From the IMG/VR virus record IMGVR_UViG_2563366819_000003, positions 1-55,732 of that record: a stretch of DNA of 55,732 bases; one strand, given 5' to 3'. Within the stretch, counting starts at the first letter, position 1. Each line of letters opens with the position of its first letter. Source of the DNA: a virus (taxonomy: Duplodnaviria > Heunggongvirae > Uroviricota > Caudoviricetes). The notes under the pieces are model-generated. The model worked only from the letters and a program-made list of their open reading frames with translations, had not been told where the DNA came from and did not search any database. The translations under genes were made by a program, and so were the position numbers. This document shows, piece after piece, positions 1,689 through 32,394 of the stretch.

Positions 1689-1907
1689 TCACAGTCCCCA
1701 TTGTTTGTTCTTAAGTTCGATCTCCTCCTGGCAACTAGCACAAGTCCGACAACCCTGAACAGCCAGGCGTCTTCGCTCATCTATCGGATCGCCACACTCA
1801 CAACAATGAGTTGCGGATACAGTCTGGTAGTTCAGACGACGCATTTTTATTGCTGTATTGCGCTGTAATTCTTCGATTTCTGATGCTGAATCAATGATGT
1901 CTGCCAT
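1689..1907 (-). CDS. DksA/TraR-family C4 zinc-finger protein (lambda Orf73-like)
   Basis: 72 aa with CxxC...CxxC pattern (CCECGDPIDERRR...CRTCASC) as in TraR/DksA zinc fingers. Confidence 0.7.
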   Translation of the reverse strand: MADIIDSASEIEELQRNTAIKMRRLNYQTVSATHCCECGDPIDERRRLAVQGCRTCASCQEEIELKNKQWGL

Positions 1908-2060
1908 CTTTCATTAATCCCTGAATTGTTGGTTAATACGCTTGAGGATGAATGCGAACAATAAAAAAGGAGCCTGTAGCTCCCTGATGATTTTGCTTTT
2001 CATGTTCACCGTTCCTTAAAGACGCCGTACAGCATGCTGATATGAGACAATGTTGATTCA

Positions 2061-3125
2061 TTAAGTTGTTTCCAGACTTCCTTTGGTAAAAGCTTGTATC
2101 AGTCTGTTTGCTGCTGCTTTCTGCGCTGCCACATTGGCAATAACAGATAGTTTTTCCTGGCTGGCTTTCGTGCAGATCCCCGCCCAGTTATCCATCAGAA
2201 AAAAATCCTCTCTTTCTGCAGAGCTGGTAGTTGCACATAGTTTTTCGATCATAGAAGTTATTTCTGCGATGGAATGATTAACCATCATCTGTTGAACCGC
2301 AAAACCGAAAGCGTTAATCATTACTCCATGGAACTGAATATAATCGCGCTTGTACGTAGCGTGGTGTACACCATGTCGAATTGAGTCAATCTGAGTTAGT
2401 GTAATCCATGCCTCCCAGACAGATTCTATATATCCCATTTCAAGTTGTTGATTGCCGTTCCTAGCGAACTTTGACGTTGCATCAGTGAGTGCCTTGAAAC
2501 TCACCCACATATTACTTTTTAATGGCACTACGTTGTGTTCAAAATCGGTTATATCGGCAAATACAGTATGTTGGGTCAGGAAGGATATCATTCCCTGAGC
2601 AATATCATCCCGGCCGTTATACGCCATATTGATGGTCGCTGATGGCTTAGAAACGTTGTTATTTATGTCCGAAAAGAACTGCTGCCGGGTTTTTAGCGGC
2701 AGATTCATTGTAAGCATCATGGGAACCATGAGCGTTGATGGGGAACTTCGGCAAAATATCTCAATGCCAGCTGCACGATGTTGACCATCAAAAAGTTTTA
2801 TTTCGGCGTCGAGGGGAATTCTGGCTATACCAACATTTGTGTTGCCAAACGGTACAAATTCTATATTCGAATCACAGTTACCTACGAGAGGGGGAATGAT
2901 AAAAGGCTCATTTCTTGAGTCTGCGTTAGTGAGATAATTTAAAAATTTTCGTACTCGATTTGGATTAATTTCTCGCTGAGAGCGTTCCAGTGTATGGCCG
3001 TAATTATCTGAAGCGAGGAAACGAGCCAGCGATCTTCCTGGTATGGTAAGGAAGAGTGTAACAGTACCACCCTGTACACCTTGCGATGCCGGAAATTCGA
3101 ATGAATGATTACCAACCTGACTCAT
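2061..3125 (-). CDS. DGQHR-domain protein (DndB-like, ParB-like nuclease fold)
   Basis: 354-aa ORF containing the literal motif DGQHR (KLFDGQHRAAGIE) characteristic of the DndB/DGQHR family; sits in the non-essential region between xis and exo. Confidence 0.7.
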   Translation of the reverse strand: MSQVGNHSFEFPASQGVQGGTVTLFLTIPGRSLARFLASDNYGHTLERSQREINPNRVRKFLNYLTNADSRNEPFIIPPLVGNCDSNIEFVPFGNTNVGIARIPLDAEIKLFDGQHRAAGIEIFCRSSPSTLMVPMMLTMNLPLKTRQQFFSDINNNVSKPSATINMAYNGRDDIAQGMISFLTQHTVFADITDFEHNVVPLKSNMWVSFKALTDATSKFARNGNQQLEMGYIESVWEAWITLTQIDSIRHGVHHATYKRDYIQFHGVMINAFGFAVQQMMVNHSIAEITSMIEKLCATTSSAEREDFFLMDNWAGICTKASQEKLSVIANVAAQKAAANRLIQAFTKGSLETT

Positions 3126-3276
3126 ATATCCTCCTGTTTATTATTTATCTTCTCAGCCAGCCGCTGTGCTTTCAGTGGATTTCTGATAACAGAAAGGCCG
3201 GGAAATACCCAGCCTCGCTTTGTAATTGAGTAGACGAAAGTGATCGCGCCTACCCGGATATTATCGTGAGGATGCG

Positions 3277-3957
3277 TCATCGCCATTGCTCCCCAAATAC
3301 AAAACCAATTTCAGCCAGTGCCTCGTCCATTTTTTCGATGAACTCCGGCACCATCTCGTCAAAACTCGCTATGTACTTTTCATCCCGCTCAACCACGACA
3401 TAATGCAGGCCTTCACGCTTCATACGCGGGTCATAGTTGGCAAAGTACCAGGCATCTTTTCGCGTCACCCACATGCTGTACTGCACCTGGGCCATGTAAG
3501 CCGACTTTATGGCCTCGAAACCACCGAGCCGGAACTTCATGAAATCCCGGGAGGTAAACGGGCATTTCAGCTCAAGGCCATTGCCGTCACTGCATAAACC
3601 ATCGGGAGAGCAGGCGGTGCGCATACTTTCGTCGCGATAGATGATCGGGGATTCAATAACATTTACGCCGGAAGTGAACTCAAACAGGGTTCTGGCGTCG
3701 TTCTCGTACTGTTTTCCCCAGGCCAGCGCTTTAGCGTTAACTTCCGGAGCCACACCGGTGCAAACCTCAGCCAGCAGGGTGTGGAAGTAGGACATTTTCA
3801 TGTCAGGCCACTTCTTTCCTGATCGGGGCTTTGCTATCACGTTGTGAACTTCTGAAGCGGTGATGACGCCGAGCCGTAATTTGTGCCATGCATCATCCCC
3901 CTGTTCGACAGCTCTCACGTCGATCCCGGTACGCTGCAGGATAATGTACGGTGTCAT
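3277..3957 (-). CDS. exo: Lambda exonuclease (Red-alpha)
   Basis: 226 aa, near-identical over full length to lambda Exo as recalled ([39 protein letters not shown]...GFVFGEQWR). Confidence 0.96.
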
Positions 3958-4739
3958 GCTGCCACCTTCTGCTCAGTGGCTTTCTGTTTCAGGAATCCAA
4001 GAGCTTTCACTGCTTCGGCCTGTGTCAGTTCTGACGATGCGCGAATGTCGCGGCGAAATATCTGGGAACAGAGCGGCAATAAGTCGTCATCCCATGTTTT
4101 ATCCAGGGCAATCAGCAGAGTGTTAATCTCCTGCATGGTTTCATCGTTAACCGGAGTGATGTCGCGTTCCGGCTGACGTTCTGCAGTGTATGCGGTATTT
4201 TCGACAATGCGCTCGGCTTCATCCTTGTCATAGATACCAGCAAATCCGAAGGCGAGACGGGCACACTGAATCATGGCTTTATGCCGTAACATCCGTTTGG
4301 GATGCGACTGCCACGGCCCCGTGATTTCTCTGCCTTCGCGGGTTTTGAATGGTTCGCGGCGGCATTCATCCATCCACTCGGTAACGCAGATCGGATGATT
4401 GCGGTCTTTGCGGTAAATCCGGCATGTGCAGGATTCGTTGTCCTGTTCAAAGTCCATGCCGTCAAACTGCTGGTTTTCGTTGATGATGCGGGACCAGCCA
4501 TCAACGCCCACCACCGGAACGATGCCGTTCTGCTTATCGGGGAAGGCGTAAATTTCTTTCGTCCACGGATTAAGGCCGTATTGGTTGGCGACGATCAGCA
4601 ATGCGATGAACTGCGCATCGCTGGCATCGCCTTTAAATGCTGTCTGGCGAAGAGTGGTGATCAGTTCCTGTGGGTCGACAGAATCCATGCCGACACGTTC
4701 AGCCAGCTTCCCAGCCAGCGTTGCGAGTGCTGTACTCAT
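3954..4739 (-). CDS. bet: Recombination protein Bet (Red-beta)
   Basis: 261 aa, matches lambda Bet ([59 protein letters not shown]...). Confidence 0.96.
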
Positions 4740-4744
4740 CCGTT

Positions 4745-5041
4745 TTATACCTCTGAATCAATATCAACCTGGTGGTGAGCAATGGTTTCAACCATGTACC
4801 GGATGTGTTCTGCCATGCGCTCCTGAAACTCAACATCGTCATCAAACGCACGGGTAATGGCTTTTTTGCTGGCCCCGTGGCGTTGCAAATGATCGATGCA
4901 TAGCGATTCAAACAGGTGCTGGGGCAGGCCTTTTTCCATGTCGTCTGCAAGTTCTGCCTCTTTCTCTTCACGGGCGATCTGCTGGTAGTGACGCGCCCAG
5001 CTCTGAGCCTCAAGACGATCCTGAATGTAATAAGCGTTCAT
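4745..5041 (-). CDS. gam: Gam (RecBCD inhibitor), short GamS-length form
   Basis: 98 aa, matches lambda GamS ([21 protein letters not shown]...[10 protein letters not shown]). Confidence 0.93.
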
Positions 5042-9878: not shown

Positions 9879-12800
9879 ATGACCACTGTGAATAAAAAGT
9901 TAAAAAAAACTGCATCTGGCGCGATTACATGGTCAGTAATTGTTACCCAGATATTATCTCCAGTTTCTCTTTCTTTGATTCCGGCAAACAGTTTTGCATC
10001 GTCTGATAATAAAGATGTTACGCAAATTTATGCTAGCGATGAGCGTGCAAATAAAGTGGCCTCATTTGCAGTAAGTGCAGGTCAGAGTCTGGCGAATAAT
10101 AATGCAAGTAGTTTTGCTGTAAATACTTTATCAACTCAGGCGACAAAAGAGGTCGTCGATTGGTTGCAACAATATGGCAATGCGCGCATCAAGCTTAATG
10201 TCGATGATTCTTTTTCCTTGAAGGATTCATCATTCGACTTTTTATATCCATGGCTGGATACTCAGGATTATGTGCTATTCAGTCAAACATCACTACATCG
10301 TACTGATGACCGTAATCAGACCAATATTGGTTTGGGGATTCGTCATTTCACTCCTGATAATGCAATGTTGGGTGCGAATGTTTTCTACGATTATGATTTA
10401 AGTCGCAGCCACTCTCGCGCAGGTTTTGGGGTTGAGTACTGGAGAGATTATTTCAGGCTTGGTGTAAATACCTATTTTGGTTTATCTGACTGGAAGGACA
10501 GTCGGGATATTGATGATTATCTGGAAAGACCCGCAAATGGCTGGGATTTTTCTGCTGAAGGATGGCTACCTGCTTATCCGCAATTAGGGGCATCTATTCA
10601 GTTTGAAAAATATTATGGTAAAAATGTCGGATTATTTGGAAGCGATAATCTGCAGGAAAACCCTTACGCAGTTACTGGGGGAATTTCTTATACACCAGTT
10701 CCTCTGATTAAGTTTTCTGCACAGCATAAGCAAGGACAGAGCAACGTTCACGATACAACCTTTGGTGTTGAGTTTAATTACCGCCCAGGCGTTTCCCTTG
10801 CTGAACAGCTTAGCAGTGACAATGTTGCAGTTATGCGAGAAGTCCAGAACCGGCGTTATGATTTTGTTGAACGAAATAACAACATTGTTCTGGAGTACAA
10901 GAAGAAGCATGCACTGAAAATCAGCTTACCAGAGTCTGTTCAGGGGGATGGCGAATCAATCATCCCTGTAACACTGACAATCAACAATGCCAGTGGTGGT
11001 ATCAAGTCTGTACAGTGGAATGATAGTGTATTCACTGCGGCTGGCGGTAAGATCAGTGGAAATGGCACATCATGGCAGGTCACTTTACCGGCTTATAAAA
11101 GCGAAGGTGTAAATTCGTGGAATGTTGGAGCCACGGTCCAGGATAATAGAGGCAACGTTTCCAACTATGCGGTGATGAATATTAGCGTTATTAATAGTGG
11201 TGTCTCGACAGCGGATTCTTCTTTTATGTTGGATGGAGATTCATCTCCGACGATCTCTGCTGATGGTCAATCCACTCATCCAATAGTATTAAGCCTGAAA
11301 GACAGTAACGGTAAGGCATTAACCGGACTGGCTGATGACATTGAAATGTCAGTGGAATTTACTGCGGATAGCAATAGTGCTCGACAGCGTGAAACGGTAA
11401 CTGCCCCGTCATTAGGCGCGGTAGAGGAAATCTCTGCTGGTGTATATCGCTCTGTTCTGACTGCTGGTTCGCAGGCTGGCACAGTACGTGTAACAGCAAA
11501 AGTTCAGGGAAAAACCTTTACTTTGAATATTAAGCAGGCAGCCGTTATTGATAGTGATGTCTCGACAGCGGATTCTTCTTTTACGTTGGATGGTGATTCG
11601 TCTCCGACGATCTCTGCTGATGGTCAATCCACTCATCCAATAGTATTAAGCCTGAAAGACAGTAACGGTAAGGCATTAACCGGACTGGCTGATGACATTG
11701 AAATGTCAGTGGAATTTACTGCGGATAGCAATAGTGCTCGACAGCGTGAAACGGTAACTGCCCCGTCATTAGGCGCGGTAGAGGAAATCTCTGCTGGTGT
11801 ATATCGCTCTGTTCTGACTGCTGGTTCGCAGGCTGGTACGGTACGTGTAACTGCAAAAGTAATGGATAAAACATTTACTCTCAGTATTAAGCAAACAGCA
11901 GCAACAGAACCTGATTCTGAGGTCAGTGCTGTTTTAACCGCTGCACCAGCAGAACAGGTAGTTGGTTACAATATCAATCTACAACTGGCAGTGAAGGATT
12001 CACAAGGAAATGCAATCACTGGTGATAACACTCTGAGCTTTTATGCTCTTAACCAGGCAGAAGGAGTCGAGTTTGGGGCTGTAACGGAAAAAGACGGTGT
12101 CTATAGCGCGACAGTAACTTCAAAACGAGCTGGTAAGATTCGGATCGGTGTTAAATCGGGTAGTCACAATTTCTCAGGTATTGAGAAAGAAATCTCCTTT
12201 ATTGAAGATCGAACACAGTTCGCATTCTCTCGTATTGAAGCCAGTAAAAATAATGCATTGGCTGACGGCAAACAACAGAATACGGTGACTGTAAGCCTTG
12301 CAGATCGTTTCGGCAATGTTGTGCCCGGTTATGCTGTTACGCTGTCCTTACCTGCGGGGGTAACTCAAGTTGGTGGTGAACATGCTGTGTCAACTGACGA
12401 AAACGGTAATGCTGTTTTTGCGTTAATAAGCTCCACTCCGGGTTCTTACGTGATTAAAGCTCATGCTGGTTCTCAGATGTCTACTGAGTTAACAGTAACC
12501 TTTGCATCAAATATGATCGGAGCTTCACTGTCACTGACGCCTGGAAACAGTAGCTTAATTTCCAATATTCCTGCTAATGGTAAGGATGCTGCGGTATTGA
12601 ATGTGCAACTGACAAATACGAATGCGTCGGTCAATGGACAGAAGATTCAGCTCATCACCTCATCTGAAGGATTGTCTGTACCGACAAATATCGTGACTGA
12701 TTCAACAGGGCATGTTTCCGTACCACTTACAACGGTGAGAGCTGGTGAGTATACGGTGGCTGCACGAGTGACTGACGGTTCCCATAGTGTGGAGTCTGGC

Positions 12801-13787
12801 AGCGTTAAGTTAACTTTTGTACCAGATGCTGCTTCCGCAGAACTTACTATGAGTACATCAAAACAGCAGATTGTGGCCGATGGTAGTGAAAGTGCAACAG
12901 TGGACATTCAGTTGGTTGATGCCAATAACAATGCGTTTACAGGCGATGTGGATTTAACGGTTACACCATCGACGGGAGCATCATTGACCAGTAGTAAACT
13001 GCAGTTGGATGCTCATGGACAGGCAACAACGCAGTTCACAGCATCGAAATCAGGCCAGTACACAATTCAGGCTGAGTATGTTCTAGATGGGAAACGTATA
13101 ACCGCAAGCAAAAATATTGATGCCGTGACGGATGTGAAGGAGGCTGTGTTGGAGATCACATCATCTGCATCTTCGGCTGTAGTGAGCGATACCAACAATC
13201 TGATATTTACGTTACTGTTGAAAAGTACGTCAGGCGAAGTATTAAGTGGTCGAGTATTGAATATCAAGGCATCTGGGCCGTCCAAATATGGTGCGTTGGT
13301 GGTTGATAAAACCACTGTAACGACTGATGAGTATGGTCTGGCTACGGTAAGCGTACATGGTCGAACGGCTGGTTCGTATAAATTAACGGCGACCTTAGAT
13401 GAACTTGGCAGTGATGTTAGTGAGGTGAAGTCATTCTCTCTGTATGCTGATGAGGCAAATGGAGTATTGACACTGCATAAAGATGGAGGCTATGACACAG
13501 ATGATGGTACTCCAGTGGGGGTTTATGCCCGATTTGTTGACCATTTCGGCAATCCGTTATCTGGTACGGTTGAGTTTTCTGCTGGTAGTGAAGATAGTCC
13601 AAACTCTCAACGGGTTAAAATGGAGCCTGCTACAGTAACGTTACACTGGACAGGTAATGCAGCCTCGGAGTTCAGCACCTATGAAAGCGGTTATCACTGG
13701 ATTAAGGCCAAAATAACGAACAGCAAAAATACATATGAGAAAACAATAAGGACTTATGTTGTAAAGCTCCCTGAAAAGGATAGTTAA
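9879..13787 (+). CDS. Intimin/invasin-family inverse autotransporter adhesin with multiple Big (bacterial Ig-like) domains
   Basis: 1302 aa; N-terminal signal-like segment, beta-barrel region typical of inverse autotransporters (WLQQYGNARIKLNVDD...), then repeated Ig-like modules including a tandem 119-aa duplication; AT-rich upstream region and terminator downstream. Confidence 0.8.
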   Translation: MTTVNKKLKKTASGAITWSVIVTQILSPVSLSLIPANSFASSDNKDVTQIYASDERANKVASFAVSAGQSLANNNASSFAVNTLSTQATKEVVDWLQQYGNARIKLNVDDSFSLKDSSFDFLYPWLDTQDYVLFSQTSLHRTDDRNQTNIGLGIRHFTPDNAMLGANVFYDYDLSRSHSRAGFGVEYWRDYFRLGVNTYFGLSDWKDSRDIDDYLERPANGWDFSAEGWLPAYPQLGASIQFEKYYGKNVGLFGSDNLQENPYAVTGGISYTPVPLIKFSAQHKQGQSNVHDTTFGVEFNYRPGVSLAEQLSSDNVAVMREVQNRRYDFVERNNNIVLEYKKKHALKISLPESVQGDGESIIPVTLTINNASGGIKSVQWNDSVFTAAGGKISGNGTSWQVTLPAYKSEGVNSWNVGATVQDNRGNVSNYAVMNISVINSGVSTADSSFMLDGDSSPTISADGQSTHPIVLSLKDSNGKALTGLADDIEMSVEFTADSNSARQRETVTAPSLGAVEEISAGVYRSVLTAGSQAGTVRVTAKVQGKTFTLNIKQAAVIDSDVSTADSSFTLDGDSSPTISADGQSTHPIVLSLKDSNGKALTGLADDIEMSVEFTADSNSARQRETVTAPSLGAVEEISAGVYRSVLTAGSQAGTVRVTAKVMDKTFTLSIKQTAATEPDSEVSAVLTAAPAEQVVGYNINLQLAVKDSQGNAITGDNTLSFYALNQAEGVEFGAVTEKDGVYSATVTSKRAGKIRIGVKSGSHNFSGIEKEISFIEDRTQFAFSRIEASKNNALADGKQQNTVTVSLADRFGNVVPGYAVTLSLPAGVTQVGGEHAVSTDENGNAVFALISSTPGSYVIKAHAGSQMSTELTVTFASNMIGASLSLTPGNSSLISNIPANGKDAAVLNVQLTNTNASVNGQKIQLITSSEGLSVPTNIVTDSTGHVSVPLTTVRAGEYTVAARVTDGSHSVESGSVKLTFVPDAASAELTMSTSKQQIVADGSESATVDIQLVDANNNAFTGDVDLTVTPSTGASLTSSKLQLDAHGQATTQFTASKSGQYTIQAEYVLDGKRITASKNIDAVTDVKEAVLEITSSASSAVVSDTNNLIFTLLLKSTSGEVLSGRVLNIKASGPSKYGALVVDKTTVTTDEYGLATVSVHGRTAGSYKLTATLDELGSDVSEVKSFSLYADEANGVLTLHKDGGYDTDDGTPVGVYARFVDHFGNPLSGTVEFSAGSEDSPNSQRVKMEPATVTLHWTGNAASEFSTYESGYHWIKAKITNSKNTYEKTIRTYVVKLPEKDS
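11197..11910 (+). repeat. Near-perfect tandem duplication (2 x about 357 bp) encoding a duplicated Ig-like domain within the adhesin gene
   Basis: Sequence from about 11201 (tgtctcgacagcggattcttctttt...) recurs at about 11558 almost identically; encoded peptide VSTADSSF.LDGDSSPTISADGQSTHPIVLSLKDSNGKALTGLADDIEMS... is repeated. Confidence 0.85.
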
Positions 13788-14085: not shown

Positions 14086-14541
14086 GTGAACCTCCCACAA
14101 GATGGCATCAAATTACATCGCGGTAACTTCACCGCTATCGGTCGGCAGATCCAGCCTTATCTGGAGGACGGCAAATGCTTTCGCATGGTGCTTAAACCGT
14201 GGCGCGAGAGACGCAGTCTTTCCCAGAATGCACTCAGCCACATGTGGTACAGCGAAATCAGTGAATACCTCATCAGCAGGGGTAAAACGTTCGCCACTCC
14301 AGCTTGGGTAAAAGATGCTCTCAAACACACATATCTCGGTTATGAAACCAAAGACCTGGTTGATGTCGTAACCGGTGATATCACCACTATCCAGTCGTTA
14401 CGCCATACCTCCGACCTTGATACCGGAGAGATGTATGTCTTCCTGTGTAAGGTTGAAGCCTGGGCGATGAATATTGGCTGCCACCTGACTATTCCGCAGA
14501 GCTGCGAGTTCCAGCTGCTGCGTGATAAGCAGGAGGCGTAA
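14086..14541 (+). CDS. ninB: NinB-family recombination protein (YbcN-like)
   Basis: 151 aa, conserved RSLSQN motif of NinB family; first gene of the nin region. Confidence 0.8.
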
Positions 14542-16148: not shown

Positions 16149-17231
16149 TTAGAACTGATACACCAGACCTACAGCGACGATGTCGTCGGTATCAATACCA
16201 GCTGTTTTGGTAAACTTACTATCGTCAATTAAGTTGATTTTGTAATCAACAAAAGTGGACATGTTTTTATTAAAGTAGTAAGTAGCACCGACATCGACAT
16301 ACTTGACTAAGTCTCGGTCACCATGAACACCAAGGTCTTTACCTTTTGACTGAAGGTAAGCAACAGATGGTCGCAGACCGAAGTCAAACTGATATTGTGC
16401 TACTGCTTCAAAGTTTTGTGCTTTGTTTGCAATATGGTTATTACCAAAAACGGTCATATTCTGAGTTTCAGAATATGTGGTAGCCAGATAGATATTGTTC
16501 GCATCATATTTCAGGCCTGCAGCCCATACTTCCGCATTTTTGCCGGAGGCATTGAATTTGCTCTTACCATAGGCGACCTGACCGTCAGTGCGATCTGATT
16601 TAGCATAGGTTGCACCCACGCCGAATCCTTCATACTCATAAGTAGTGGAGAAACCGAAACCATCACCATTGGCTTCAGTTACGTCAGTGCGGTCATTTTT
16701 ACCCTGATACTGAGCAGCAAAGTTCAGGCCATCGACCAGACCAAAGAAGTCGTTGTTACGATAGGTTGCAACACCAGTGGTGCGACCAGTCATGAACACA
16801 TCTGTTTGGGTCCAGGTATCGCCACCGAATTCTGGCAGAACGTCAGTCCACGCACCGATGTCGTATGCTACACCGTAGTTACGGCCGTAATCGATTGAGC
16901 CGTAGTCACCGAATTTCAGGCCTGCAAATGCAAGACGGGTTTTGTCTTTGGAGGAACCTTGAGATTCAGCGCGGTTGCCTTTGAATTCATATTCCCACTG
17001 ACCGAAACCAGTCAGTTGATCGTTGATTTGGGTTTCACCTTTGAAGCCAAGACGGGCATAAGTAGTATCACCATCATCTGCATCGTTAGAGGAAAAGTAG
17101 TGCTTGGCATTAACTTTCCCGTACAGATCCAGCTTGTTACTGTCTTTATTATAAATTTCAGCTGCCTGAGCAGACATCGCCATCAGTACTGATGCAGCTA
17201 CAGCAGAAATTGCCACTGTTAATTTTTTCAT
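16149..17231 (-). CDS. nmpC: Outer-membrane general porin (OmpC/OmpF/NmpC family), intact
   Basis: 360 aa, signal peptide [23 protein letters not shown], porin beta-barrel hallmarks and C-terminal ...VGLVYQF; on strand opposite to flanking phage genes, with AT-rich upstream region. Confidence 0.9.
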
Positions 17232-20806: not shown

Positions 20807-23787
<2,981 letters not shown>

Positions 23788-23864
23788 AACCCTTGCTGCG
23801 TCTGGAATGTCGTTTTCCATGCTTTTGATGACCGTTCATCACCCTTCCAGTTTTTCGCGGTTTT

Positions 23865-23917
23865 GTGTATTGCAATGTGTATTGCAAATTGGCGATCGGG
23901 ATGGGTGTGTATTGCAA
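23865..23917. repeat. Three direct copies of GTGTATTGCAA upstream of satellite integrase (candidate arm-type integrase/regulator binding sites)
   Basis: gtgtattgcaa at about 23865, 23877 and 23907; related copies gtgtattgca / gtgtattgc at 34530..34551 near the other end of the element. Confidence 0.5.
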
Positions 23918-23935
23918 ATCTCTTGAGGGCTTTTA

Positions 23936-25177
23936 ATGGCTATTGAAAACAAACTCAGTGACAAACTGTTAAAGAGTCTTGTCGGAAAACGGCAGGACAA
24001 ACAAAAAACAATAGCGGATGGGCGCGGGTTGTCTGTGCGTGTAAGCATGGTTGGGGGGATCAGCTTTGTTTTTTACTATCGTCTTGGTGGCAGGGAATCC
24101 CCTCCGGTATGGCTTACACTTGGTCGCTATCCTGACATGTCTCTTGCAACGGCCAGGCGCATGCGTGATCAGTGCCGTGAATGGCTGGCTGAAAATCTGG
24201 ACCCCCGCAGGCAAATAAAACTTGCTGCCGAAAAAACTATGCAACCAGTGACCGTAAGGGATGCGCTGTTTTACTGGTACGACAATCACGCCACAACAGC
24301 CAGAAAAGAGCATGAATATTTAATAAAACGATTTGAAAAGCATATCTTCCCCTATATCGGTGATATGGCTATAGAACAGTGCAAATTACACACATGGCTT
24401 ACCGTCTTTGACAGGATCAAAAAAAATGCGCCTGTTATGTCTGGTGCAATTTTTCTTGATATCAAACAGGCGTTGCGTTTTTGTCGCGTCAGGCAATACA
24501 TCGCGTGCGATCCCTTTGGAGATATTAACGTAAGTTATGTCGGGCGCTCATCCGGTATAAGGGATCGCGTTCTTAATATCAATGAAACCGCTGATGTATG
24601 GTCTTATGCTTACGGTAATAATTTGCTAACTCTGTCATCAATATATAACCGAAGAATAATGGTTATCTGCCTGGTGTTTGGTTGCCGACAGCAGGAGGCG
24701 AGGCTATCCACCTGGGACGAATGGGATTTAAAAAACTGGGTATGGACAGTCCCAAAAGAGCACAGCAAAAACAAGGAGGCTATAGTAAGGCCTGTTCCTG
24801 ACGGAATAAAACAATGGATCGTTAATCTTTACGCAGAAACAAAAAATCGCGGTTATGTTGTCGGTTGTGCTTTGCAAAGGGCGACAATAACAGGGGCTGC
24901 AAACAGAATATGCAGGCGTCTTGGTCATGATACTAATGGCTTGTGGTGCATACATGATTTCAGGCGCACATTTTCCACTACGCTTAATGATATGGGGGCG
25001 GATCCTTATATTGTTGAACTTCTTTTAGGTCATAAAGTGAAAGGGGTTGCTGGTGTTTACAATAAAAGCAGGCATATAAAGAAAAAACTTGAGGTGCTTA
25101 ATATGTGGGTTAATTACCTTAATACGATAGCAGGATTTAACAACAACGTTATCGAGCTTAATAAAGAGGTGGTGTGA
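23936..25177 (+). CDS. int: Tyrosine integrase, P4-type
   Basis: 413 aa; C-terminal catalytic region (HDFRRTFSTTLNDMG...LLGHKVKGVAGVYNKS); at one end of the inserted element adjacent to the repeat. Confidence 0.9.
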   Translation: MAIENKLSDKLLKSLVGKRQDKQKTIADGRGLSVRVSMVGGISFVFYYRLGGRESPPVWLTLGRYPDMSLATARRMRDQCREWLAENLDPRRQIKLAAEKTMQPVTVRDALFYWYDNHATTARKEHEYLIKRFEKHIFPYIGDMAIEQCKLHTWLTVFDRIKKNAPVMSGAIFLDIKQALRFCRVRQYIACDPFGDINVSYVGRSSGIRDRVLNINETADVWSYAYGNNLLTLSSIYNRRIMVICLVFGCRQQEARLSTWDEWDLKNWVWTVPKEHSKNKEAIVRPVPDGIKQWIVNLYAETKNRGYVVGCALQRATITGAANRICRRLGHDTNGLWCIHDFRRTFSTTLNDMGADPYIVELLLGHKVKGVAGVYNKSRHIKKKLEVLNMWVNYLNTIAGFNNNVIELNKEVV

Positions 25178-25178
25178 T

Positions 25179-25436
25179 ATGGCAATTTATTCTCTTGTTG
25201 ATGAAAACGATTTGCGCACAATGAAGGACATTGATCGGTTCATTCGTGAAAAAGAGTGCATAGCACTTACCACGCTGGCAAACTCAACACGCTGGAAAAT
25301 GGAGCTAGCAGGTAAATTCCCGCGACGTATCAAGATCGGTGAACGTGCTGCAGGGTATCGACTTTCAGAGGTTCAGGCATGGATCCGTGGTGAGTGGCAT
25401 CCTGGATGGAAACCTGGAAAAACAAAACAGCAATAA
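25179..25436 (+). CDS. alpA: AlpA-family HTH regulator / excisionase-like protein
   Basis: 85 aa; AlpA-like segment LTTLANSTRWKMELAGKFPRRIKIGERAAGYRLSEVQAWI; directly downstream of the integrase. Confidence 0.8.
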   Translation: MAIYSLVDENDLRTMKDIDRFIREKECIALTTLANSTRWKMELAGKFPRRIKIGERAAGYRLSEVQAWIRGEWHPGWKPGKTKQQ

Positions 25437-25492
25437 CCAGTAAATAATGCCCCTCATCACGAGGGGTTTTTTGTCTATAAGGTAAAAACGCG

Positions 25493-26071
25493 ATGAATAA
25501 AAATATTGCCGTGACGGGCAAGGGGTACGCTCGTCCAGTGAAAAAATTCTGCGATATTCGTGATCTCGTCGTTCTGCGCTTTGATAGTGTGAACGTTCGT
25601 GTGGTGTATCTGAACGGCGATCCGTGGTTTGTTGCAAAAGATGTTTGTGCTGCGCTGGAACTAACCAATTCGCGTACGGCGTTGCAGATGCTTGATGATG
25701 ATGAAAAGGGAGTAAATTTAACTTACACCCCAGGAGGAAATCAGAATATGAGAATTATCTCTGAGTCAGGTTTCTACAAACTAATAGCCCGCAGCCGCAA
25801 AGCAACGACGCCTGGCACATTTGCTCATCGTTTCAGTAACTGGGTATTCAGAAATGTGATACCAGGTATCAGAAAAACGGGGACTTATGGTATCCCGTGG
25901 GGTGCATTACAGGATTTTTCCCGCCGTAAAGAGCAATATCAAATAAGTGCCAGCGAGAAGGGGAGGGAGCTACAGGCATGTAAGCGCAAAAAGCGTGAGC
26001 TGGAGGAAGAAGAAAAAACGCTGATACGTGAATATCAGCCTGAGTTTTACTTTGGTAACCGCATTCAGTGA
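25493..26071 (+). CDS. Bro-N domain protein (antirepressor-like)
   Basis: 192 aa; Bro-N-like core (VRVVYLNGDPWFVAKDVCAALEL...ISESGFYKLIARSRK...FSNWVFRNVIPGIRKTGTY). Confidence 0.65.
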   Translation: MNKNIAVTGKGYARPVKKFCDIRDLVVLRFDSVNVRVVYLNGDPWFVAKDVCAALELTNSRTALQMLDDDEKGVNLTYTPGGNQNMRIISESGFYKLIARSRKATTPGTFAHRFSNWVFRNVIPGIRKTGTYGIPWGALQDFSRRKEQYQISASEKGRELQACKRKKRELEEEEKTLIREYQPEFYFGNRIQ

Positions 26072-26404
26072 CAAAACAAAGGCGACCGCAAAAGGGTCGC
26101 CAGTGGGAACAAGGGAAAACAAAAGCATCACCAACAATGCCACATTTGCGGCTGGTGGGCAATGTGATCAGTCAGATTTGGTTCGTTCCAAGGTTTGCAA
26201 CGAGAGCTTTTTCCTGTGCTCTTTAAGGAATTTCTCAAGAGCAAACGAACAAGGTGCGAATCTTTCTGATTCATGTTCATGCGCTATATTTTTGCGTCGT
26301 CTCTTACGAGTTGGTGATGGTGTTTTGGTTGATTCTGTGTCGCTCATGGTGCTGTCCTGTAAAGCAATGCGCCTGCGTTCCTCAAACTATGGCGCTGATA
26401 TTGG

Positions 26405-26710
26405 CTATTCATGCTCTTTGACCTTGCGTCGCTGGAGTTCTTCACGCGCGACGGTGACGAGTTGCCCGATCTCCTCGGCTGCTTTGATGCCGATTTGTTC
26501 GACCTTAGCCAGGGCATCCAGTGACGACACAAGGGGATTTTCTCCGCTGCCTTCTGCTTGGCGGCGGGCTATTTCTCCGCGCATGGCGGTTACGATAAAT
26601 CCGGCATTGCTTTCACCGTCCAGCTTAACGGATTCCATCCCTTGCATAACATCTAGTGGGACTCTGACAGTTGTCAGTTGTGATTTTGCGTTTTTGTTAG
26701 CCGTTGCCAT
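26405..26710 (-). CDS. Hypothetical protein, divergently transcribed from the satellite replication operon (candidate regulator)
   Basis: 101-aa ORF on minus strand facing a promoter-operator-like region; no clear HTH recognised. Confidence 0.4.
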   Translation of the reverse strand: MATANKNAKSQLTTVRVPLDVMQGMESVKLDGESNAGFIVTAMRGEIARRQAEGSGENPLVSSLDALAKVEQIGIKAAEEIGQLVTVAREELQRRKVKEHE

Positions 26711-26770
26711 TTCTGAAACTCCTAATCATCGGTGTGTTTCAGTATACACAAAAAAAGAAATACAAAAAGC

Positions 26771-26809
26771 CTTGACGTGTGTTTCATGCGCTCATAACAT
26801 GAAACACAC
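26771..26809. promoter_or_regulatory. Promoter/operator candidate: TTGACG -35-like hexamer followed by a 12-bp perfect inverted repeat
   Basis: cttgacg tgtgtttcatg cgctcataa catgaaacacac; inverted repeat 26777..26788 / 26798..26809, between divergent genes. Confidence 0.4.
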
Positions 26810-26900
26810 CGAAAGGATTGTTGAAATACAAAGAGCAACGCCCCGCAGTGCTGGGAACACATACGGGGCGTCTAACCAACAACGTAAACTAGGAGCCGTT

Positions 26901-27098
26901 ATGGTTGCTGTAAATCATATACCACACCTTGTACACACACAAACGGCCTTTGTGTGGCGTTTTCTGGCACTGAGTGCCGGAGAATCTCAAATCATCCACG
27001 TAACCGCCTGGACGGAACGCGAAGCGCGTAGCCGTTGCCCGTCCGGTTGTGTTGCTGTATTCGCTGCAAAAATCCGCCAGGGAGTGAGTCATGCTTAA
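26901..27098 (+). CDS. Hypothetical small protein (65 aa), first gene of rightward satellite operon
   Basis: ATG at 26901 preceded by RBS AGGAG (26891..26895); lies at 3' end of a longer, compositionally odd ORF in the track. Confidence 0.35.
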   Translation: MVAVNHIPHLVHTQTAFVWRFLALSAGESQIIHVTAWTEREARSRCPSGCVAVFAAKIRQGVSHA

Positions 27099-27276
27099 AA
27101 CCTTCCGTGTATTTGCCCGAGCTGTTAACCCAATAGGCCACACAATTGGTATCGCTCAGAATGTGAAGGCTGTTAATGTTCAGACGGCTATTGCTGCGGT
27201 GAGAAGCGAATCATCAGAATATGGCTTATCACAAGTCATTATTTCAGCAGTGTATGAATTAAAAGAGGTGCATTAA
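27091..27276 (+). CDS. Hypothetical small protein
   Basis: 61-aa ORF with RBS GGAG upstream, overlapping neighbours by a few nt (translationally coupled operon). Confidence 0.35.
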   Translation: MLKTFRVFARAVNPIGHTIGIAQNVKAVNVQTAIAAVRSESSEYGLSQVIISAVYELKEVH

Positions 27277-27467
27277 TGCAGGAAATTACATTACACGAAG
27301 CCGCTGAACGTGCGCACCAGACAGAAATTATTTGCCGCCTTCTTGAGGTATACCCGAACAAAATTACAGATGCTGATATATCCGCACTGGCGAGCCTACT
27401 GGCGCGTCTTTCGGGAAGTGTCGCTAGTTTTTTGATTGAGGAAGAAAGTAAGCTGGTGGAGGATTAA
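27276..27467 (+). CDS. Hypothetical small protein
   Basis: 63-aa ORF in tightly packed operon. Confidence 0.35.
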   Translation: MQEITLHEAAERAHQTEIICRLLEVYPNKITDADISALASLLARLSGSVASFLIEEESKLVED

Positions 27468-27689
27468 ATGAATACAGAACGGGAAGTCTTTTTTAAATTG
27501 TTAGCATGTGCAGAAAGTTCATTAACTTTAAATAATTCAGCAAAAGCAATATTAAATATGTGGCTTGATTGCATAAATGACAATGAAGATGCAAATATTG
27601 CTTATGGTCTGTTGTCACTTATTGATGAATCAGCAGAAAAACTCAATGACGCAATAAATAGTGCCCTGCTATCAAATAAGTCGAGTTAA
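27468..27689 (+). CDS. Hypothetical small protein
   Basis: 73-aa ORF in tightly packed operon. Confidence 0.35.
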   Translation: MNTEREVFFKLLACAESSLTLNNSAKAILNMWLDCINDNEDANIAYGLLSLIDESAEKLNDAINSALLSNKSS

Positions 27690-27706
27690 GTCGAGGAATA
27701 AATAAT

Positions 27707-28006
27707 ATGGAAATGAAAAATTCTGGCTTTATTGCCAGCGGCCCAGCTCGACCTGAATTTATGAACGGCGATATTTACCGCGATAAATACGGCGGCACGG
27801 TAACGATTAAAGGCGTGGCAGAACGGCGCATCACTTACCGCCGTGAGGGGTATAGCTATGACTGCGTGATGCCTGTTTATCAGTTCCGGCGTGATTTTTC
27901 CCTGGTATATGCCGCACCCCGCAGTAAGCCCATCAGCAGGGAAAAAGCGTGGGGAAATATCCAGAAAATGAAAACCATGATTAACGGATTCAGAGGTAAA
28001 AAATGA
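27707..28006 (+). CDS. Hypothetical protein
   Basis: 99-aa ORF, stop overlaps primase start (ATGA). Confidence 0.4.
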   Translation: MEMKNSGFIASGPARPEFMNGDIYRDKYGGTVTIKGVAERRITYRREGYSYDCVMPVYQFRRDFSLVYAAPRSKPISREKAWGNIQKMKTMINGFRGKK

Positions 28007-29757: not shown

Positions 29758-29759
29758 TT

Positions 29760-30010
29760 TTTTGTAAAAGCCATCTACCCCATCTACCTGAACAAAATAA
29801 ACGCATATTATTCAACATGATAAGTGGGTATAGGGCTAGGTAGAAGGCTAATAAAAGCTCTCTACCTCTTCTACCTGATTTTATCAGTTTCAGGTAGCAG
29901 GGTAGACGGCAGGTAGAGGAGTCAAAAAGCTATCTACCCGCTGAAAGCCGCGCCATTACTGACATGATGAGCATTCGGGTAGATGGGTAGAGGGGGGGAG
30001 GCACAACTAA
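29760..30010. repeat. Iteron-like repeats (GGTAGA / TCTACC family) downstream of primase: candidate satellite replication origin
   Basis: Multiple direct and inverted copies: catctaccccatctacctg, ctaggtagaaggc, ctctacctcttctacctg, caggtagcagggtagacggcaggtagagga, gctatctacccgc, gggtagatgggtagag. Confidence 0.5.
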
Positions 30011-30103
30011 AAACTTTTTAAACGAGGGGGGTGAAAATAAATGCGCATACATAAAAATCACTTAACAAACATGCCAGCCGAAGACATGAATCAGGGGTGA
30101 CAA

Positions 30104-30355
30104 ATGACCAAAATTCGCAGAGACAGAACACAGGCAAAATATAAAGCGTTAGACATGACAGAGCTTTCCTTAAAGGTGGCAATCAAAGCGATAGACCACC
30201 ACACACGGGCAGGATACGCGAAGGAACATCCCGATCTGATAAGCGCATTCATGACCACAGCAGCGGCAAACTTTGCCACGCTGACAGAACGGGAGATTGC
30301 CGAAGCGGAACAGGTGACAACCATCAATGTTAAAACCGGAGAGCAGACAGCATGA
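30104..30355 (+). CDS. Hypothetical protein
   Basis: 83-aa ORF upstream of and overlapping the SSB gene start. Confidence 0.35.
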   Translation: MTKIRRDRTQAKYKALDMTELSLKVAIKAIDHHTRAGYAKEHPDLISAFMTTAAANFATLTEREIAEAEQVTTINVKTGEQTA

Positions 30356-30774
30356 CAGCACAGATAGCGGCTTACGGGCGGCTGGTGGCTGACCCGCAGT
30401 TAAAGACCACCAGCAAAGGGACACAAATGGCGATGGCGAGTATGGCGGTTCCCCTGCCGTGCAGCCAGGCAGATGACGGAACGGCGACGATGTGGTTATC
30501 CGTCCTGGCGTTTGGCAGACAGGCCGACGCACTGGCAAAACACCACAAAGGCGAACTGGTGAGCGTGGCGGGTAACATGCAGGTAAGCCAGTGGACAGGC
30601 CAGAACGGCGAAACGCGGCGGGGCTGGCAGGTTATCGCAGACAGCGTAATCAGTGCGCGAACGGCGCGACCGGGCGGCAAAAAAGGCCAGCAGGGGCAGG
30701 CCACTGACGCACTGAACAGGGCAAAACAACAGTCGGGGAATGATGATCCGTACGGCGATAATATACCGTTTTAA
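30352..30774 (+). CDS. ssb: Single-stranded DNA-binding protein (SSB-like)
   Basis: 140 aa; OB-fold-like body, Gly/Gln-rich linker and acidic C-terminal tip ...NDDPYGDNIPF resembling the SSB DDDIPF tail. Confidence 0.7.
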   Translation: MTAQIAAYGRLVADPQLKTTSKGTQMAMASMAVPLPCSQADDGTATMWLSVLAFGRQADALAKHHKGELVSVAGNMQVSQWTGQNGETRRGWQVIADSVISARTARPGGKKGQQGQATDALNRAKQQSGNDDPYGDNIPF

Positions 30775-30985
30775 ATTCTGCAAACAAAAAGATGCCGGAA
30801 AAAAATATATTTTCCGGCATGCTACATAAATCCCGACCAAAGGAAGTAAATACATTAACACGAATTATCAGCACTGAAGTTGTTACGGCATATTTTATAC
30901 AACATTGCACTTGGTTGCATGTATTCGCATAGCAGACATCGGTAATAGAATATATTCACAATTATTTGTAATGAATGTAAAGAGG

Positions 30986-32032: not shown

Positions 32033-32041
32033 GGGGGAGCA

Positions 32042-32383: not shown

Positions 32384-32394
32384 AGGGGGATACA

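What the first reader, a model, noticed from the sequence alone, without database searches (positions are those of the whole stretch)
2061..3125. Stand-alone DGQHR-domain (DndB-like) protein in the int-to-exo accessory region
The literal DGQHR motif marks the DndB family of ParB-like proteins associated with DNA phosphorothioation systems. Here it is a single gene with no dnd/ssp partners in the window, in a region of lambdoid phages that carries non-essential accessory genes. It may be a phage-encoded defence, exclusion or anti-restriction function.
Basis: partly seen in the sequence, partly recalled or inferred. Interest (0 to 1): 0.55.

Follow-up and report, generated by a model that had tools for sequence, protein, structure and literature searches.

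The report
Stand-alone DndB-like NTPase in prophage
A lambda-like prophage carries a lone, well-conserved relative of DndB, with no sulfur-modification genes nearby; close relatives sit in the first-expressed regions of phages and conjugative plasmids, which suggests it helps incoming DNA establish itself rather than defending the host.

Summary

It is not DndB proper. The DndB equivalog model fails (107 vs 328 bits), identity to a dndBCDE-linked DndB is 25%, and no dnd or methyltransferase gene exists in the 55.7-kb window. About 125 related loci show no conserved partner.

The gene is translationally coupled into the early leftward operon (exo - orf60a/DUF1317 - DGQHR - TraR), in a slot that sibling phages fill with a Dam methylase or small ORFs. 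Relatives (39-45% identical in the examples examined) occur on 1,071 plasmids, 885 of them conjugative. In the four contexts examined they sit beside ArdA, KlcA-type antirestriction, ssb or PsiA. In phages, DNA methyltransferases of four families cluster directly downstream.

Best reading (inferred): an early-made, NTP-gated DNA-binding protein acting in element establishment, through anti-restriction or DNA modification. A lysogen-expressed defence role is less likely. I class it as a new variant of a known kind. Its function is untested and interest is moderate.

The parts
2061..3125 (-). CDS for the 354-aa stand-alone DGQHR-domain (DndB-like, ParB/Srx-fold) protein
2775..2789 (-). Codons for D113-G-Q-H-R117, the signature motif. 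It is equivalent to the NTP-binding GxxR box of ParB and to the DGQQR motif of SspE and DpdB.
   Evidence: Sequence read. Invariant in alignments A1 and A2. The role of the motif is taken from PMC10164549 and PMC4619093.
2973..2978 (-). Codons for the conserved QR pair (Q50-R51) of the DGQHR domain
   Evidence: Invariant in A1 and A2. Motif defined in PMC4619093.
2661..2675 (-). Codons for the FxxxN motif (F151-S-D-I-N155) inside the invariant block RQQFFSDINNNVSKPS
   Evidence: Invariant in A1 and A2. Motif defined in PMC4619093.
3130..3135 (-). Shine-Dalgarno sequence AGGAGG, 4 nt before the ATG
   Evidence: Sequence read.
3122..3286 (-). Upstream DUF1317 gene (lambda orf60a position). Its stop overlaps the DGQHR start (ATGA). 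It is frequent upstream of enterobacterial homologues but also present in phages that lack the DGQHR gene.
   Evidence: PF07026 106.9 bits. Overlap seen. Present in phage Turner and PhiR30_1 without the DGQHR gene.
3277..5041 (-). exo-bet-gam recombination genes, the upstream part of the same leftward early operon
   Evidence: ORFs. PGAP names in an E. coli genome whose DGQHR gene is 100% identical.
1967..1985 (-). Terminator-like hairpin (AGGGAGC-TAC-AGGCTCCTT followed by TTTTATTGTT), 76 nt after the stop codon and inside a doubtful 42-aa ORF (1933-2061). It belongs to the phage backbone, not to the cassette.
   Evidence: The surrounding 42-aa ORF segment is retained (35 of 42 aa, 91% identity) in phage Turner, which lacks the DGQHR gene; the hairpin itself was not inspected there.
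1689..1907 (-). Downstream TraR/DksA-type zinc-finger gene, the constant downstream neighbour of the E. coli allele
   Evidence: PF01258 37.3 bits. In the architectures shown for the window's own allele cluster (n=31), the downstream neighbour is this TraR-like gene.

Best explanation
The gene encodes a dnd-independent member of the DGQHR/DndB branch of the ParB/sulfiredoxin superfamily.

Shown here: the protein has the NTP-binding ParB/Srx fold followed by a helical C-terminal domain. It carries no nuclease or other effector domain. It is under strong purifying selection. It is co-translated with the early leftward (exo-bet-gam) operon.

Inferred: like its characterised cousins DndB (an ATP-modulated DNA-binding dimer) and DpdB (a DNA-stimulated ATPase dimer needed for a DNA-modifying enzyme to work), it binds DNA as an NTP-gated dimer. 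It is made in the first minutes after phage DNA becomes active, at infection or induction. It serves the establishment of the element at the restriction/modification interface. It could do this by shielding or marking the element's DNA against restriction, or by assisting or tuning a DNA methyltransferase, encoded next door in many relatives and by the host or not at all in this prophage.

It is therefore most likely an early 'establishment / anti-defence-type' factor shared between temperate phages and conjugative plasmids. It is not part of a phosphorothioation system and not a lysogen-expressed immunity gene.
For: Fold and motifs.

Not DndB proper:
- TIGR03233 scores 106.9 against a cut-off of 328.
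- Identity to a dndBCDE-linked DndB is 25%.
- No Dnd or MTase homologue in the window.

No conserved partner in 39 genome loci and 80 viral loci. Neighbours are phage early genes: cI, int, SSB, RecT, RdgC, exonucleases.

Operon coupling and no promoter of its own: ATGA overlap; 3 promoter-like sites found against 4.0 expected.

Plasmid relatives: 1,071 plasmids, 885 conjugative. In the examples examined they lie in leading regions, transcribed towards oriT:
- IncL/M: RadC - HTH - DGQHR - DUF4942 - Hha - antirestriction - ssb - mobA/traI.
- A 45%-identical relative: DGQHR - ArdA - Hha - Antirestrict - NikA - relaxase.
- Buttiauxella-type loci (unclassified genomic contigs): DUF1281 - DGQHR - PsiA - Antirestrict - DUF932.
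Leading regions are known anti-defence islands expressed first in the recipient (PMC11541004). They normally contain a ParB-like protein next to psiB/psiA (PMC4288162; HerB, PMC13370423).

MTase clustering: 27 of the 32 MTases found within +-8 genes lie at +1 or +2 downstream. They come from four unrelated families, and none lies at -1 or -2. In phage SPN1S the DGQHR stop overlaps the MTase start.

Homologues in large non-lambdoid phages lie among DNA-metabolism and DNA-modification genes.

Biochemistry of relatives: DndB (PMC4507180), DpdB (PMC10164549), and a DndB-like protein that binds ATP and GTP (PMC12704722).

dN/dS is 0.077.
Against: No experiment exists for any member of this clade: eight literature searches found none. 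The function rests on guilt by association.

The MTase adjacency may reflect only a shared insertion hot spot. A sibling phage with identical flanks carries a Dam MTase in the same slot without a DGQHR gene. Only 9 of 38 de-replicated clusters have an MTase at +1/+2. The window's own allele never has one.

At 354 aa, with enzyme-like conservation, the protein is unlike typical small stoichiometric anti-restriction proteins.

In 63.6-kb IncL-size plasmids, consistent with pOXA-48, the homologue is split by IS1, so it is dispensable for plasmid spread at least in some hosts.

Expression timing is inferred from gene arrangement and the lambda paradigm, not measured.
Confidence: 0.45

Rival explanations
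1. Transcriptional or nucleoid reprogramming factor. The protein binds specific sites on the host chromosome or the phage genome and changes transcription. DndB does this at the dnd promoter, and the F-plasmid leading-region ParB-like protein HerB does it on the host chromosome. The result would be to tune the lysis-lysogeny decision or host physiology, as proposed for other exo-xis region genes.
For: DndB is a DNA-binding repressor (PMC4507180). HerB is an orphan ParB-like CTPase that is made zygotically, binds many chromosomal sites and lowers acquisition cost (PMC13370423). The DGQHR gene takes the place of the ParB-like gene upstream of psiA in Buttiauxella-type elements (compare with pESBL). 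Neighbours in the slot include Ea22-like and HTH proteins. H-NS/MvaT genes lie next to distant relatives.
Against: No HTH or HerB-type domain was detected by Pfam. The DndB operator TACGN10CGTA is absent from the window: 0 matches against 0.41 expected. There is no intergenic region upstream for autoregulation. DndB's regulatory cysteine is not conserved: Ile28 in its place. A canonical ParB-HTH protein co-occurs immediately upstream in some phage loci, so the two are not simple substitutes.
Confidence: 0.22
2. Prophage-encoded defence or superinfection exclusion. Expressed in the lysogen, the protein would sense or attack incoming phage DNA, either alone or by co-opting host factors.
For: The gene is a foreign-looking cassette: GC about 0.43 against 0.52 in exo/bet. 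It stays intact in decayed prophages and occurs in 284 of 5,426 complete E. coli genomes at >=99% identity. Relatives of the fold (GmrSD, BrxU, SspE) are restriction enzymes, and ParB-like Osa has DNase and exclusion activity (PMC5512222).
Against: There is no promoter signal upstream and the gene is translationally coupled to pL-operon genes. There is no DUF1524/HNH or other nuclease domain. The 'EH' of the TDFEHNVVP block is not conserved across the family: H197 is K, R or N elsewhere. PADLOC matches only the DndB model and no effector. Homologues occur in transiently expressed plasmid leading regions and in large non-lambdoid phages. In 63.6-kb IncL-size plasmids, consistent with pOXA-48, the homologue is disrupted by IS1.
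Confidence: 0.13
3. NTP-regulated nickase or DNase of the ParB/Srx type. It would act on host or rival DNA, for example to aid phage recombination or replication alongside Exo/Bet/Gam, or to degrade competitors.
For: Several ParB/Srx domains show non-specific nicking coupled to NTPase activity (Osa, the Bce_0392 ParB-methylase, GmrS; PMC5512222). The gene sits directly after the Red recombination genes. Neighbours in other phages are RecT, RdgC and exonucleases. One relative is fused to MutS domain I.
Against: DpdB shows no endonuclease activity and lacks SspE's nicking motif (PMC10164549); the DndB study read here characterised it as a DNA-binding regulator and does not address nuclease activity (PMC4507180). 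There is no second nuclease domain here. Sibling phages do without the gene.
Confidence: 0.1
4. A true DndB working in trans. The phage copy would regulate or hijack a host dndBCDE/dndFGH (or ssp) system, for example by repressing modification genes.
For: It belongs to the same superfamily and has the same length and domain layout as DndB.
Against: It scores far below the DndB equivalog cut-off and is 25% identical to a dndBCDE-linked DndB. The operator motif is absent. Relatives at 27-45% identity in plasmids, phages and islands are not dnd-linked. Co-occurrence with host dnd clusters was not measured.
Confidence: 0.04

Closest known systems
DndB (DptB) of the dndBCDE phosphorothioation operon, e.g. 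Salmonella enterica Cerro 87
   Same: Same Pfam and TIGR domain (PF14072, TIGR03187), similar length (354 vs 361 aa), and the same QR / DGQHR / FxxxN motifs plus an invariant Glu at position 196. It probably shares dimeric, NTP-modulated DNA binding (inference from PMC4507180 and PMC12704722).
   Different: Only 25% identical. It fails the equivalog model (107 vs 328 bits). There is no dndCDE next to it or anywhere in the window. The regulatory Cys is replaced by Ile28, and no TACGN10CGTA operator is present. It is carried by phages and plasmids in early-expressed regions.
DpdB of the Dpd 7-deazaguanine DNA-modification system
   Different: DpdB has DGQQR, not DGQHR. It is encoded next to dpdA/dpdC; no TGT-like gene is seen next to this gene. 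No DpdB model matched in PADLOC at E <= 1.
HerB (YfjB) and the ParB-like proteins of IncF/IncI plasmid leading regions
   Same: An orphan ParB/Srx-superfamily NTP-binding protein of a mobile element with no ParA partner, encoded in the region expressed first after entry, next to ssb, psiB/psiA and ardA/klcA.
   Different: HerB is a canonical ParB (PF02195-type CTPase domain plus HTH plus a dimerisation module), and its homologues were found almost only on plasmids. The window protein belongs to the DndB branch, has no detected HTH, and is shared between phages and plasmids.
DUF262/DUF1524 enzymes (GmrSD, BrxU, SspE)
   Different: Those proteins carry a C-terminal HNH (DUF1524) nuclease with an (E/D)HxxP motif and are host defence enzymes. 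Here there is no DUF1524 hit, and the His of 'EHNVVP' is not conserved across the family.
ParB-domain-DNA methyltransferase fusions of phages and plasmids
   Same: They link a ParB/Srx NTPase module to a DNA MTase in mobile elements (PMC12704722; PMC5512222). The same link is seen here as gene adjacency, with MTases of four families at +1/+2.
   Different: Those are single polypeptides with a canonical ParB N-domain. Here the two are separate genes, the link is facultative, and it is absent in this window.

Membership tests
DGQHR domain / DndB superfamily (TIGR03187, PF14072) | Score above the curated cut-off of the domain models | tested here: met
   TIGR03187 188.8 bits against 58.85; PF14072 158.2 bits against 29.1.
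DGQHR domain / DndB superfamily (TIGR03187, PF14072) | QR pair, near-invariant DGQHR pentapeptide and FxxxN motif (PMC4619093) | tested here: met
   Q50-R51, D113-R117 and F151..N155 are invariant in 23 close homologues and in 9 diverse ones, including a dnd-linked DndB.
DGQHR domain / DndB superfamily (TIGR03187, PF14072) | ParB/sulfiredoxin fold in the N-terminal domain | tested here: met
DndB proper (TIGR03233 equivalog; regulator of dndBCDE) | Score above the equivalog cut-off | tested here: not met
   106.9 bits against a cut-off of 328; 25% identity to a dndBCDE-linked DndB.
DndB proper (TIGR03233 equivalog; regulator of dndBCDE) | Encoded with dndCDE (and usually dndA/iscS, dndFGH) | tested here: not met
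   No DndC/D/E homologue among 234 window ORFs. No conserved partner in about 125 related loci. A genuine dndBCDE locus is shown for contrast.
DndB proper (TIGR03233 equivalog; regulator of dndBCDE) | Binds TACGN10CGTA operators at its own promoter; regulatory Cys29 | tested here: not met
   0 matches to the operator in the window against 0.41 expected. There is no intergenic region upstream. The residue aligned with the Cys is Ile28. A different operator specificity cannot be excluded.
DndB proper (TIGR03233 equivalog; regulator of dndBCDE) | ATP-modulated DNA binding as a homodimer | not testable with these tools
   Needs purified protein. Only a monomer model was made.
DpdB (Dpd 7-deazaguanine system) | DGQQR motif and adjacency to dpdA (TGT-like) and dpdC | tested here: not met
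   The motif is DGQHR. The neighbours are DUF1317 and TraR. No TGT-like gene appears in the PGAP annotation of the region.
GmrSD / BrxU / SspE (DUF262 + DUF1524 type IV restriction) | C-terminal HNH (DUF1524) nuclease domain with an (E/D)HxxP motif | tested here: not met
   Pfam finds only PF14072. E196 is invariant, but H197 is K, R or N in other clades, and the spacing to Pro is EHxxxP.
HerB / canonical orphan ParB of plasmid leading regions | PF02195-type ParB N-domain plus HTH plus the HerB dimerisation module | tested here: not met
   No PF02195 or HTH_ParB hit. The weak phrog_1033 'ParB-like partition protein' match has E 0.011.
Leading-region / early-region establishment (anti-defence island) genes | Located in the first-entering, first-expressed region, on the same strand as ssb, ardA, klcA and psi genes | tested here: met
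   Met for homologues on IncL/M plasmids and for a 45%-identical plasmid relative; the Buttiauxella-type loci share the PsiA/Antirestrict neighbours, but no oriT or relaxase was seen in them. For the window gene the analogous setting is the early leftward operon.
Leading-region / early-region establishment (anti-defence island) genes | Demonstrated inhibition of a defence system or improved establishment | not testable with these tools
   No experimental report was found.

The most novel reading that the evidence does not exclude
The dnd-independent DGQHR proteins of temperate-phage early operons and conjugative-plasmid leading regions are a distinct, uncharacterised class of establishment factor. 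They would be NTP-gated DNA clamps that load onto newly entered element DNA (or the host nucleoid). There they would either make any co-resident DNA methyltransferase act fast enough to outrun restriction, or block modification-sensing or backbone-sensing restriction directly. That would make them a DndB-branch counterpart of the recently described HerB, exchanged freely between phages and plasmids.
Probability: 0.2. Interest if true: 0.7.

Novelty: new variant of a known kind. Interest (0 to 1): 0.45.

Why it matters
The domain is well known and the gene is already annotated in RefSeq as 'DGQHR domain-containing protein', so its presence is no surprise. What is not in the literature I could search is this: a coherent, strongly conserved, dnd-independent clade is shared between lambdoid and other phages (in early operons) and more than a thousand plasmids, mostly conjugative (including IncL/M plasmids and IncL-size plasmids consistent with pOXA-48). 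In the contexts examined it lies in leading regions beside ArdA, KlcA-type antirestriction, ssb or PsiA. If it proves to be an establishment or anti-restriction factor, or a cofactor of orphan methyltransferases, that would extend the emerging theme of orphan ParB-fold NTP switches (HerB, DpdB) to the DndB branch. It would also be relevant to the spread of resistance plasmids. If it proves to be a plain regulator, it is an ordinary accessory gene.

Tried and rejected
- I looked for a conserved partner gene in 39 genome loci and 80 viral loci and found none. DUF1317 upstream is frequent in enterobacterial phages, but it also occurs without the DGQHR gene, so I rejected it as a dedicated partner.
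- I considered the gene a 'moron' with its own terminator. I rejected this: the 42-aa ORF segment that contains the hairpin (1967-1985) is retained in phage Turner, which lacks the gene, and no promoter signal exceeds chance.
- I considered the invariant TDFEHNVVP block as an SspE/GmrD-type EHxxP nuclease motif. I rejected this because the His is not conserved across the family and the spacing differs.
- The DndB operator TACGN10CGTA has no match in the window.
- Relatives with N-terminal extensions of about 150 aa or longer C-termini carry no Pfam domain in the extra part, apart from one MutS_I fusion.
- I fetched E. coli FORC 064 to annotate the rest of the window. There the gene lies in a different, decayed prophage at the icd site. 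I then scanned the window ORFs directly.
- Literature: no paper on phage or plasmid DGQHR proteins turned up. The Iyer et al. 2013 paper was not held. The machine-learning anti-defence preprint does not mention ParB, Dnd or methyltransferases.
- I treated MTase adjacency as possible proof of a functional pair and downgraded it after the PhiR30_1 control.
Full report

Yes. An ORF runs from 3125 down to 2061 on the minus strand (354 aa, ATG start). AGGAGG lies 4 nt before the ATG, and the ATG overlaps the stop codon of the upstream gene (ATGA). Residues 113-117 are D-G-Q-H-R (nt 2775-2789).

The match is not a chance pentapeptide:
- The NCBIfam DGQHR-domain model TIGR03187 scores 188.8 bits (cut-off 58.85; E 1.5e-55; residues 13-281).
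- Pfam DndB PF14072 scores 158.2 bits (cut-off 29.1).
- PADLOC's DndB model scores 126 bits.
- The protein is a full-length member of phrog_7901, 'unknown function' (717 bits).

The three sequence features that define the domain are a QR pair, DGQHR and FxxxN (PMC4619093). All three are present and invariant in an alignment of 23 homologues and in a wider set that includes a genuine DndB.

**2. Is it DndB?**

At the superfamily level yes. At the family level no.
- The DndB equivalog model scores 106.9 bits against a cut-off of 328.
- Identity to a DndB encoded directly upstream of dndC-dndD-dndE in Salmonella Infantis is 25%.
- The cysteine important for DndB regulation in S. enterica (PMC4507180) aligns with Ile28.
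- DndB's operator TACGN10CGTA does not occur in the window.
- None of the 234 window ORFs of 60 aa or more resembles DndC, DndD or DndE, or any of the methyltransferases collected from related loci.

The rest of the window consists of:
- a lambda-type replication and nin region that carries an inverse autotransporter and an OmpC-like porin;
- lambda-type structural genes;
- appY at the right end of the prophage, by the annotation of AST217.

The prophage occupies the DLP12 attachment site next to tRNA-Arg.

The protein has no extra domain. The invariant TDFEHNVVP block is not an SspE/GmrD-type nuclease motif. Only the Glu is conserved across the family; the His is Lys, Arg or Asn in other clades.

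**3. Anatomy of the locus**

On the minus strand the order is gam, bet, exo, DUF1317 (the lambda orf60a position), DGQHR, a doubtful 42-aa ORF containing a terminator-like hairpin (1967-1985), a TraR/DksA zinc-finger gene, DUF4222, a putative excisionase and int.

The exo/DUF1317 and DUF1317/DGQHR junctions both overlap, so the gene is translationally coupled into the early leftward operon. No promoter-like site upstream exceeds chance: 3 found against 4.0 expected.

The gene's GC content is about 0.43, against 0.52 in exo and bet. The slot is mosaic:
- Phage Turner has 98%-identical flanks and two small ORFs in the slot.
- Phage PhiR30_1 has the same flanks and a Dam-type N6-adenine methyltransferase in the slot.
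- The 42-aa ORF segment that contains the hairpin is retained in Turner, which lacks the gene, so the hairpin most likely belongs to the backbone rather than to the cassette.

**4. Distribution**

The exact allele (>=99% nucleotide identity) is present in 284 of 5,426 complete E. coli genomes. It occurs in lambdoid prophages at two or more attachment sites, argU/DLP12 and icd, and stays intact in decayed prophages.

Enterobacterial homologues at 53-73% identity are numerous. They include isolated phages: Salmonella SPN1S, SPC32H and relatives at 65%, and Klebsiella phages at 62%.

An exhaustive HMMER scan of 1.84 billion representatives gives a modest family. There are 586 clusters at E <= 1e-3, of which 42 reach E <= 1e-30.

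Selection is strongly purifying: dN/dS is 0.077 against the 73%-identical homologue.

**5. Context of relatives**

I collected 39 genome loci and 80 viral-contig loci. I called ORFs and clustered all neighbours.

No neighbour is conserved across the family. The surroundings are typical early-left phage genes:
- cI-type repressor, integrases, SSB, RecT, RdgC and a C5 methyltransferase, assigned by eye from the sequences;
- Rv2179c-like exonuclease, DUF2303, and MT-A70, D12 and Dam-type methyltransferases, confirmed with Pfam;
- an Ea22-like protein.

One pattern stands out. I searched with seeds from four DNA methyltransferase families: MT-A70, D12 and PF05869 Dam, verified with Pfam, and a C5-type seed assigned by eye. 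Of the 32 methyltransferases found within +-8 genes of the DGQHR gene in 101 distinct architectures, 27 lie at +1 or +2 downstream. None lies at -1 or -2. They belong to four unrelated families. In SPN1S the DGQHR stop overlaps the methyltransferase start.

Three facts limit this pattern:
- Only 9 of 38 de-replicated DGQHR clusters show it.
- The window's own allele never does.
- PhiR30_1 shows that a methyltransferase can occupy the slot by itself.

So adjacency may reflect a common hot spot for DNA-modification cargo rather than an obligate pair.

**6. The plasmid connection**

Protein-level search of PLSDB finds relatives on 1,071 plasmids, 885 of them conjugative; the examples examined in detail are 39-45% identical. 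They occur mostly in Klebsiella, Enterobacter and Escherichia.

- In IncL/M plasmids the order is RadC/JAB - HTH - DGQHR (427 aa) - DUF4942 - Hha - DUF1380 - antirestriction - ssb - ... - mobA - traI. All genes are transcribed towards oriT. That is the leading region.
- The nearest 50%-identity cluster outside the phage clade (45% identical, 350 aa) lies in DnaJ-like - DGQHR - ArdA - Hha - Antirestrict - DUF5983 - NikA - relaxase.
- A Buttiauxella-type clade has DUF1281 - DGQHR - PsiA - ... - Antirestrict - DUF5983 - DUF932.
- A Vibrio plasmid copy named 'DndB' (33% identical) is also stand-alone, upstream of CBASS-like genes (nucleotidyltransferase, ThiF-family adenylyltransferase, MPN, SAVED) and radC.
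- More distant relatives (27-29%) are not dnd-linked either, and some sit beside H-NS/MvaT genes.

Leading regions are expressed first in the recipient and are enriched in anti-defence genes (PMC11541004). IncI and IncF leading regions contain a canonical ParB-like gene just before psiB-psiA (pESBL gene table, PMC4288162). That protein (YfjB, renamed HerB) was recently shown to be a zygotically induced CTP-binding ParB-like protein that binds the host chromosome and lowers acquisition cost (preprint PMC13370423). In the Buttiauxella-type elements the DGQHR protein occupies the equivalent place.

Homologues also occur in large non-lambdoid phages:
- Vibrio phage PS14A.1 (84.6 kb), near DNA ligase and RdgC.
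- Pseudoalteromonas phage KB12-38, amid two PAPS-reductase-like genes and two methyltransferases.

I did not verify the lifestyle of those phages.

**7. Mechanism**

Shown:
- a ParB/Srx NTP-binding fold with intact signature motifs;
- a helical C-terminal domain with no nuclease motif;
- strong constraint along the whole length;
- coupling to an early operon;
- exchange between phage early regions and plasmid leading regions;
- frequent but facultative juxtaposition with DNA methyltransferases and antirestriction genes.

Taken from characterised relatives:
- DndB is a homodimeric DNA-binding repressor (PMC4507180). ATP modulation of DndB is reported in a study that I saw only as a reference title (Xia et al. 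2019, cited in PMC10164549).
- A DndB-like protein binds ATP and GTP (PMC12704722).
- DpdB is a homodimeric, DNA-stimulated ATPase. The DNA transglycosylase DpdA is inactive without it, although the two form no stable complex. Its model encloses a basic tunnel wide enough for dsDNA (PMC10164549).

Inferred: the window protein is an NTP-gated DNA-binding dimer made early after infection or induction. It acts in establishment at the restriction/modification interface, either as protection against restriction or as help for or control of a methyltransferase. I give this 0.45.

Rivals and my confidence in each:
- HerB/DndB-like transcriptional reprogramming: 0.22.
- Lysogen-expressed defence or exclusion: 0.13.
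- NTP-regulated nickase linked to recombination or competition: 0.10.
- Trans-acting true DndB: 0.04.

**8. Novelty and verdict**

The domain, the fold and even this exact protein (WP_000084449.1, 'DGQHR domain-containing protein') are already in databases.

I could not find the following described in the literature: a dnd-independent clade as a recurrent component of the first-expressed regions of both phages and conjugative plasmids, including IncL/M plasmids. In the widespread 63.6-kb IncL-size plasmids, whose size is consistent with pOXA-48, the gene is split by IS1.

I class it as a new variant of a known kind, of moderate interest. The stand-alone status and the accessory location are right. 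An anti-restriction-type role is plausible. A prophage defence role is the least consistent with the anatomy.

Noticed in passing
window 22906-35404 (portal halves 22906-23787 and 34631-35404; insert about 23.8-34.6 kb): The lambda-family portal gene (PF05136) is split in two by an insertion of about 10.8 kb. The insert carries a tyrosine integrase (23936-25177), a D5_N/DUF5906/Pox_D5 primase-helicase (28003-29757) and a second major-capsid-E-like gene (30905-32032). The prophage's own capsid E gene is at 37075-38127. It looks like a capsid-forming PICI or satellite integrated into the prophage's portal gene, which would cripple particle formation by the prophage.
   Followed up: no
window 9879-13787 (+): A 1302-aa inverse autotransporter (intimin/invasin type: IAT_beta plus Big_1/Invasin_D3 repeats) lies between replication gene P and the nin region. 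It has very low GC (about 0.35) and is a virulence-type moron.
   Followed up: partly
window 16149-17231 (-): An OmpC/NmpC-like porin gene lies between the Q antiterminator and the lysis genes, as in DLP12.
   Followed up: no
63.6-kb IncL-size plasmids (size consistent with pOXA-48), e.g. NZ_CP068321.1 30197-31929 (hits H79-H94): In the widespread 63.6-kb IncL-size plasmids (size consistent with pOXA-48; replicon type not checked) the DGQHR homologue is interrupted by IS1. It is intact in other IncL/M plasmids. So the most common variant listed appears to carry a pseudogene.
   Followed up: partly
L128 (Vibrio mediterranei plasmid NZ_CP033579.1) 7001-8377; also other records named 'DndB': Stand-alone DGQHR proteins with no dnd genes nearby are named 'DNA sulfur modification protein DndB' in some RefSeq records. 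This looks like over-annotation. The Vibrio copy sits upstream of CBASS-like genes (nucleotidyltransferase, ThiF-family adenylyltransferase, MPN, SAVED) and radC.
   Followed up: partly
L137 (phage PhiR30_1) 2338-2895; L001 (phage Turner) 3006-3489: The slot between orf60a/DUF1317 and the orf61/TraR genes is a cargo hot spot in otherwise near-identical lambdoid phages. It holds the DGQHR gene (this window), a Dam-type MTase (PhiR30_1) or two small ORFs (Turner).
   Followed up: yes
L033 3861-5942 (Rheinheimera pacifica): Two DGQHR paralogues (451 and 341 aa) lie in tandem in one locus.
   Followed up: no
L139 (Pseudoalteromonas phage KB12-38) 1-8553: A 31%-identical DndB-like gene sits in a block with two PAPS-reductase-like genes, a 'sulfate reductase', a C5 methylase and another methyltransferase. 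This may be a phage DNA-modification module.
   Followed up: no
L043 (E. coli AST217) 32026-32481, by synteny the 14086-14541 (+) ORF of the window (equivalence not checked): PGAP names the nin-region gene ybcN 'DNA base-flipping protein YbcN'. In Pfam it matches NinB only weakly: 20.6 bits, below the cut-off.
   Followed up: no
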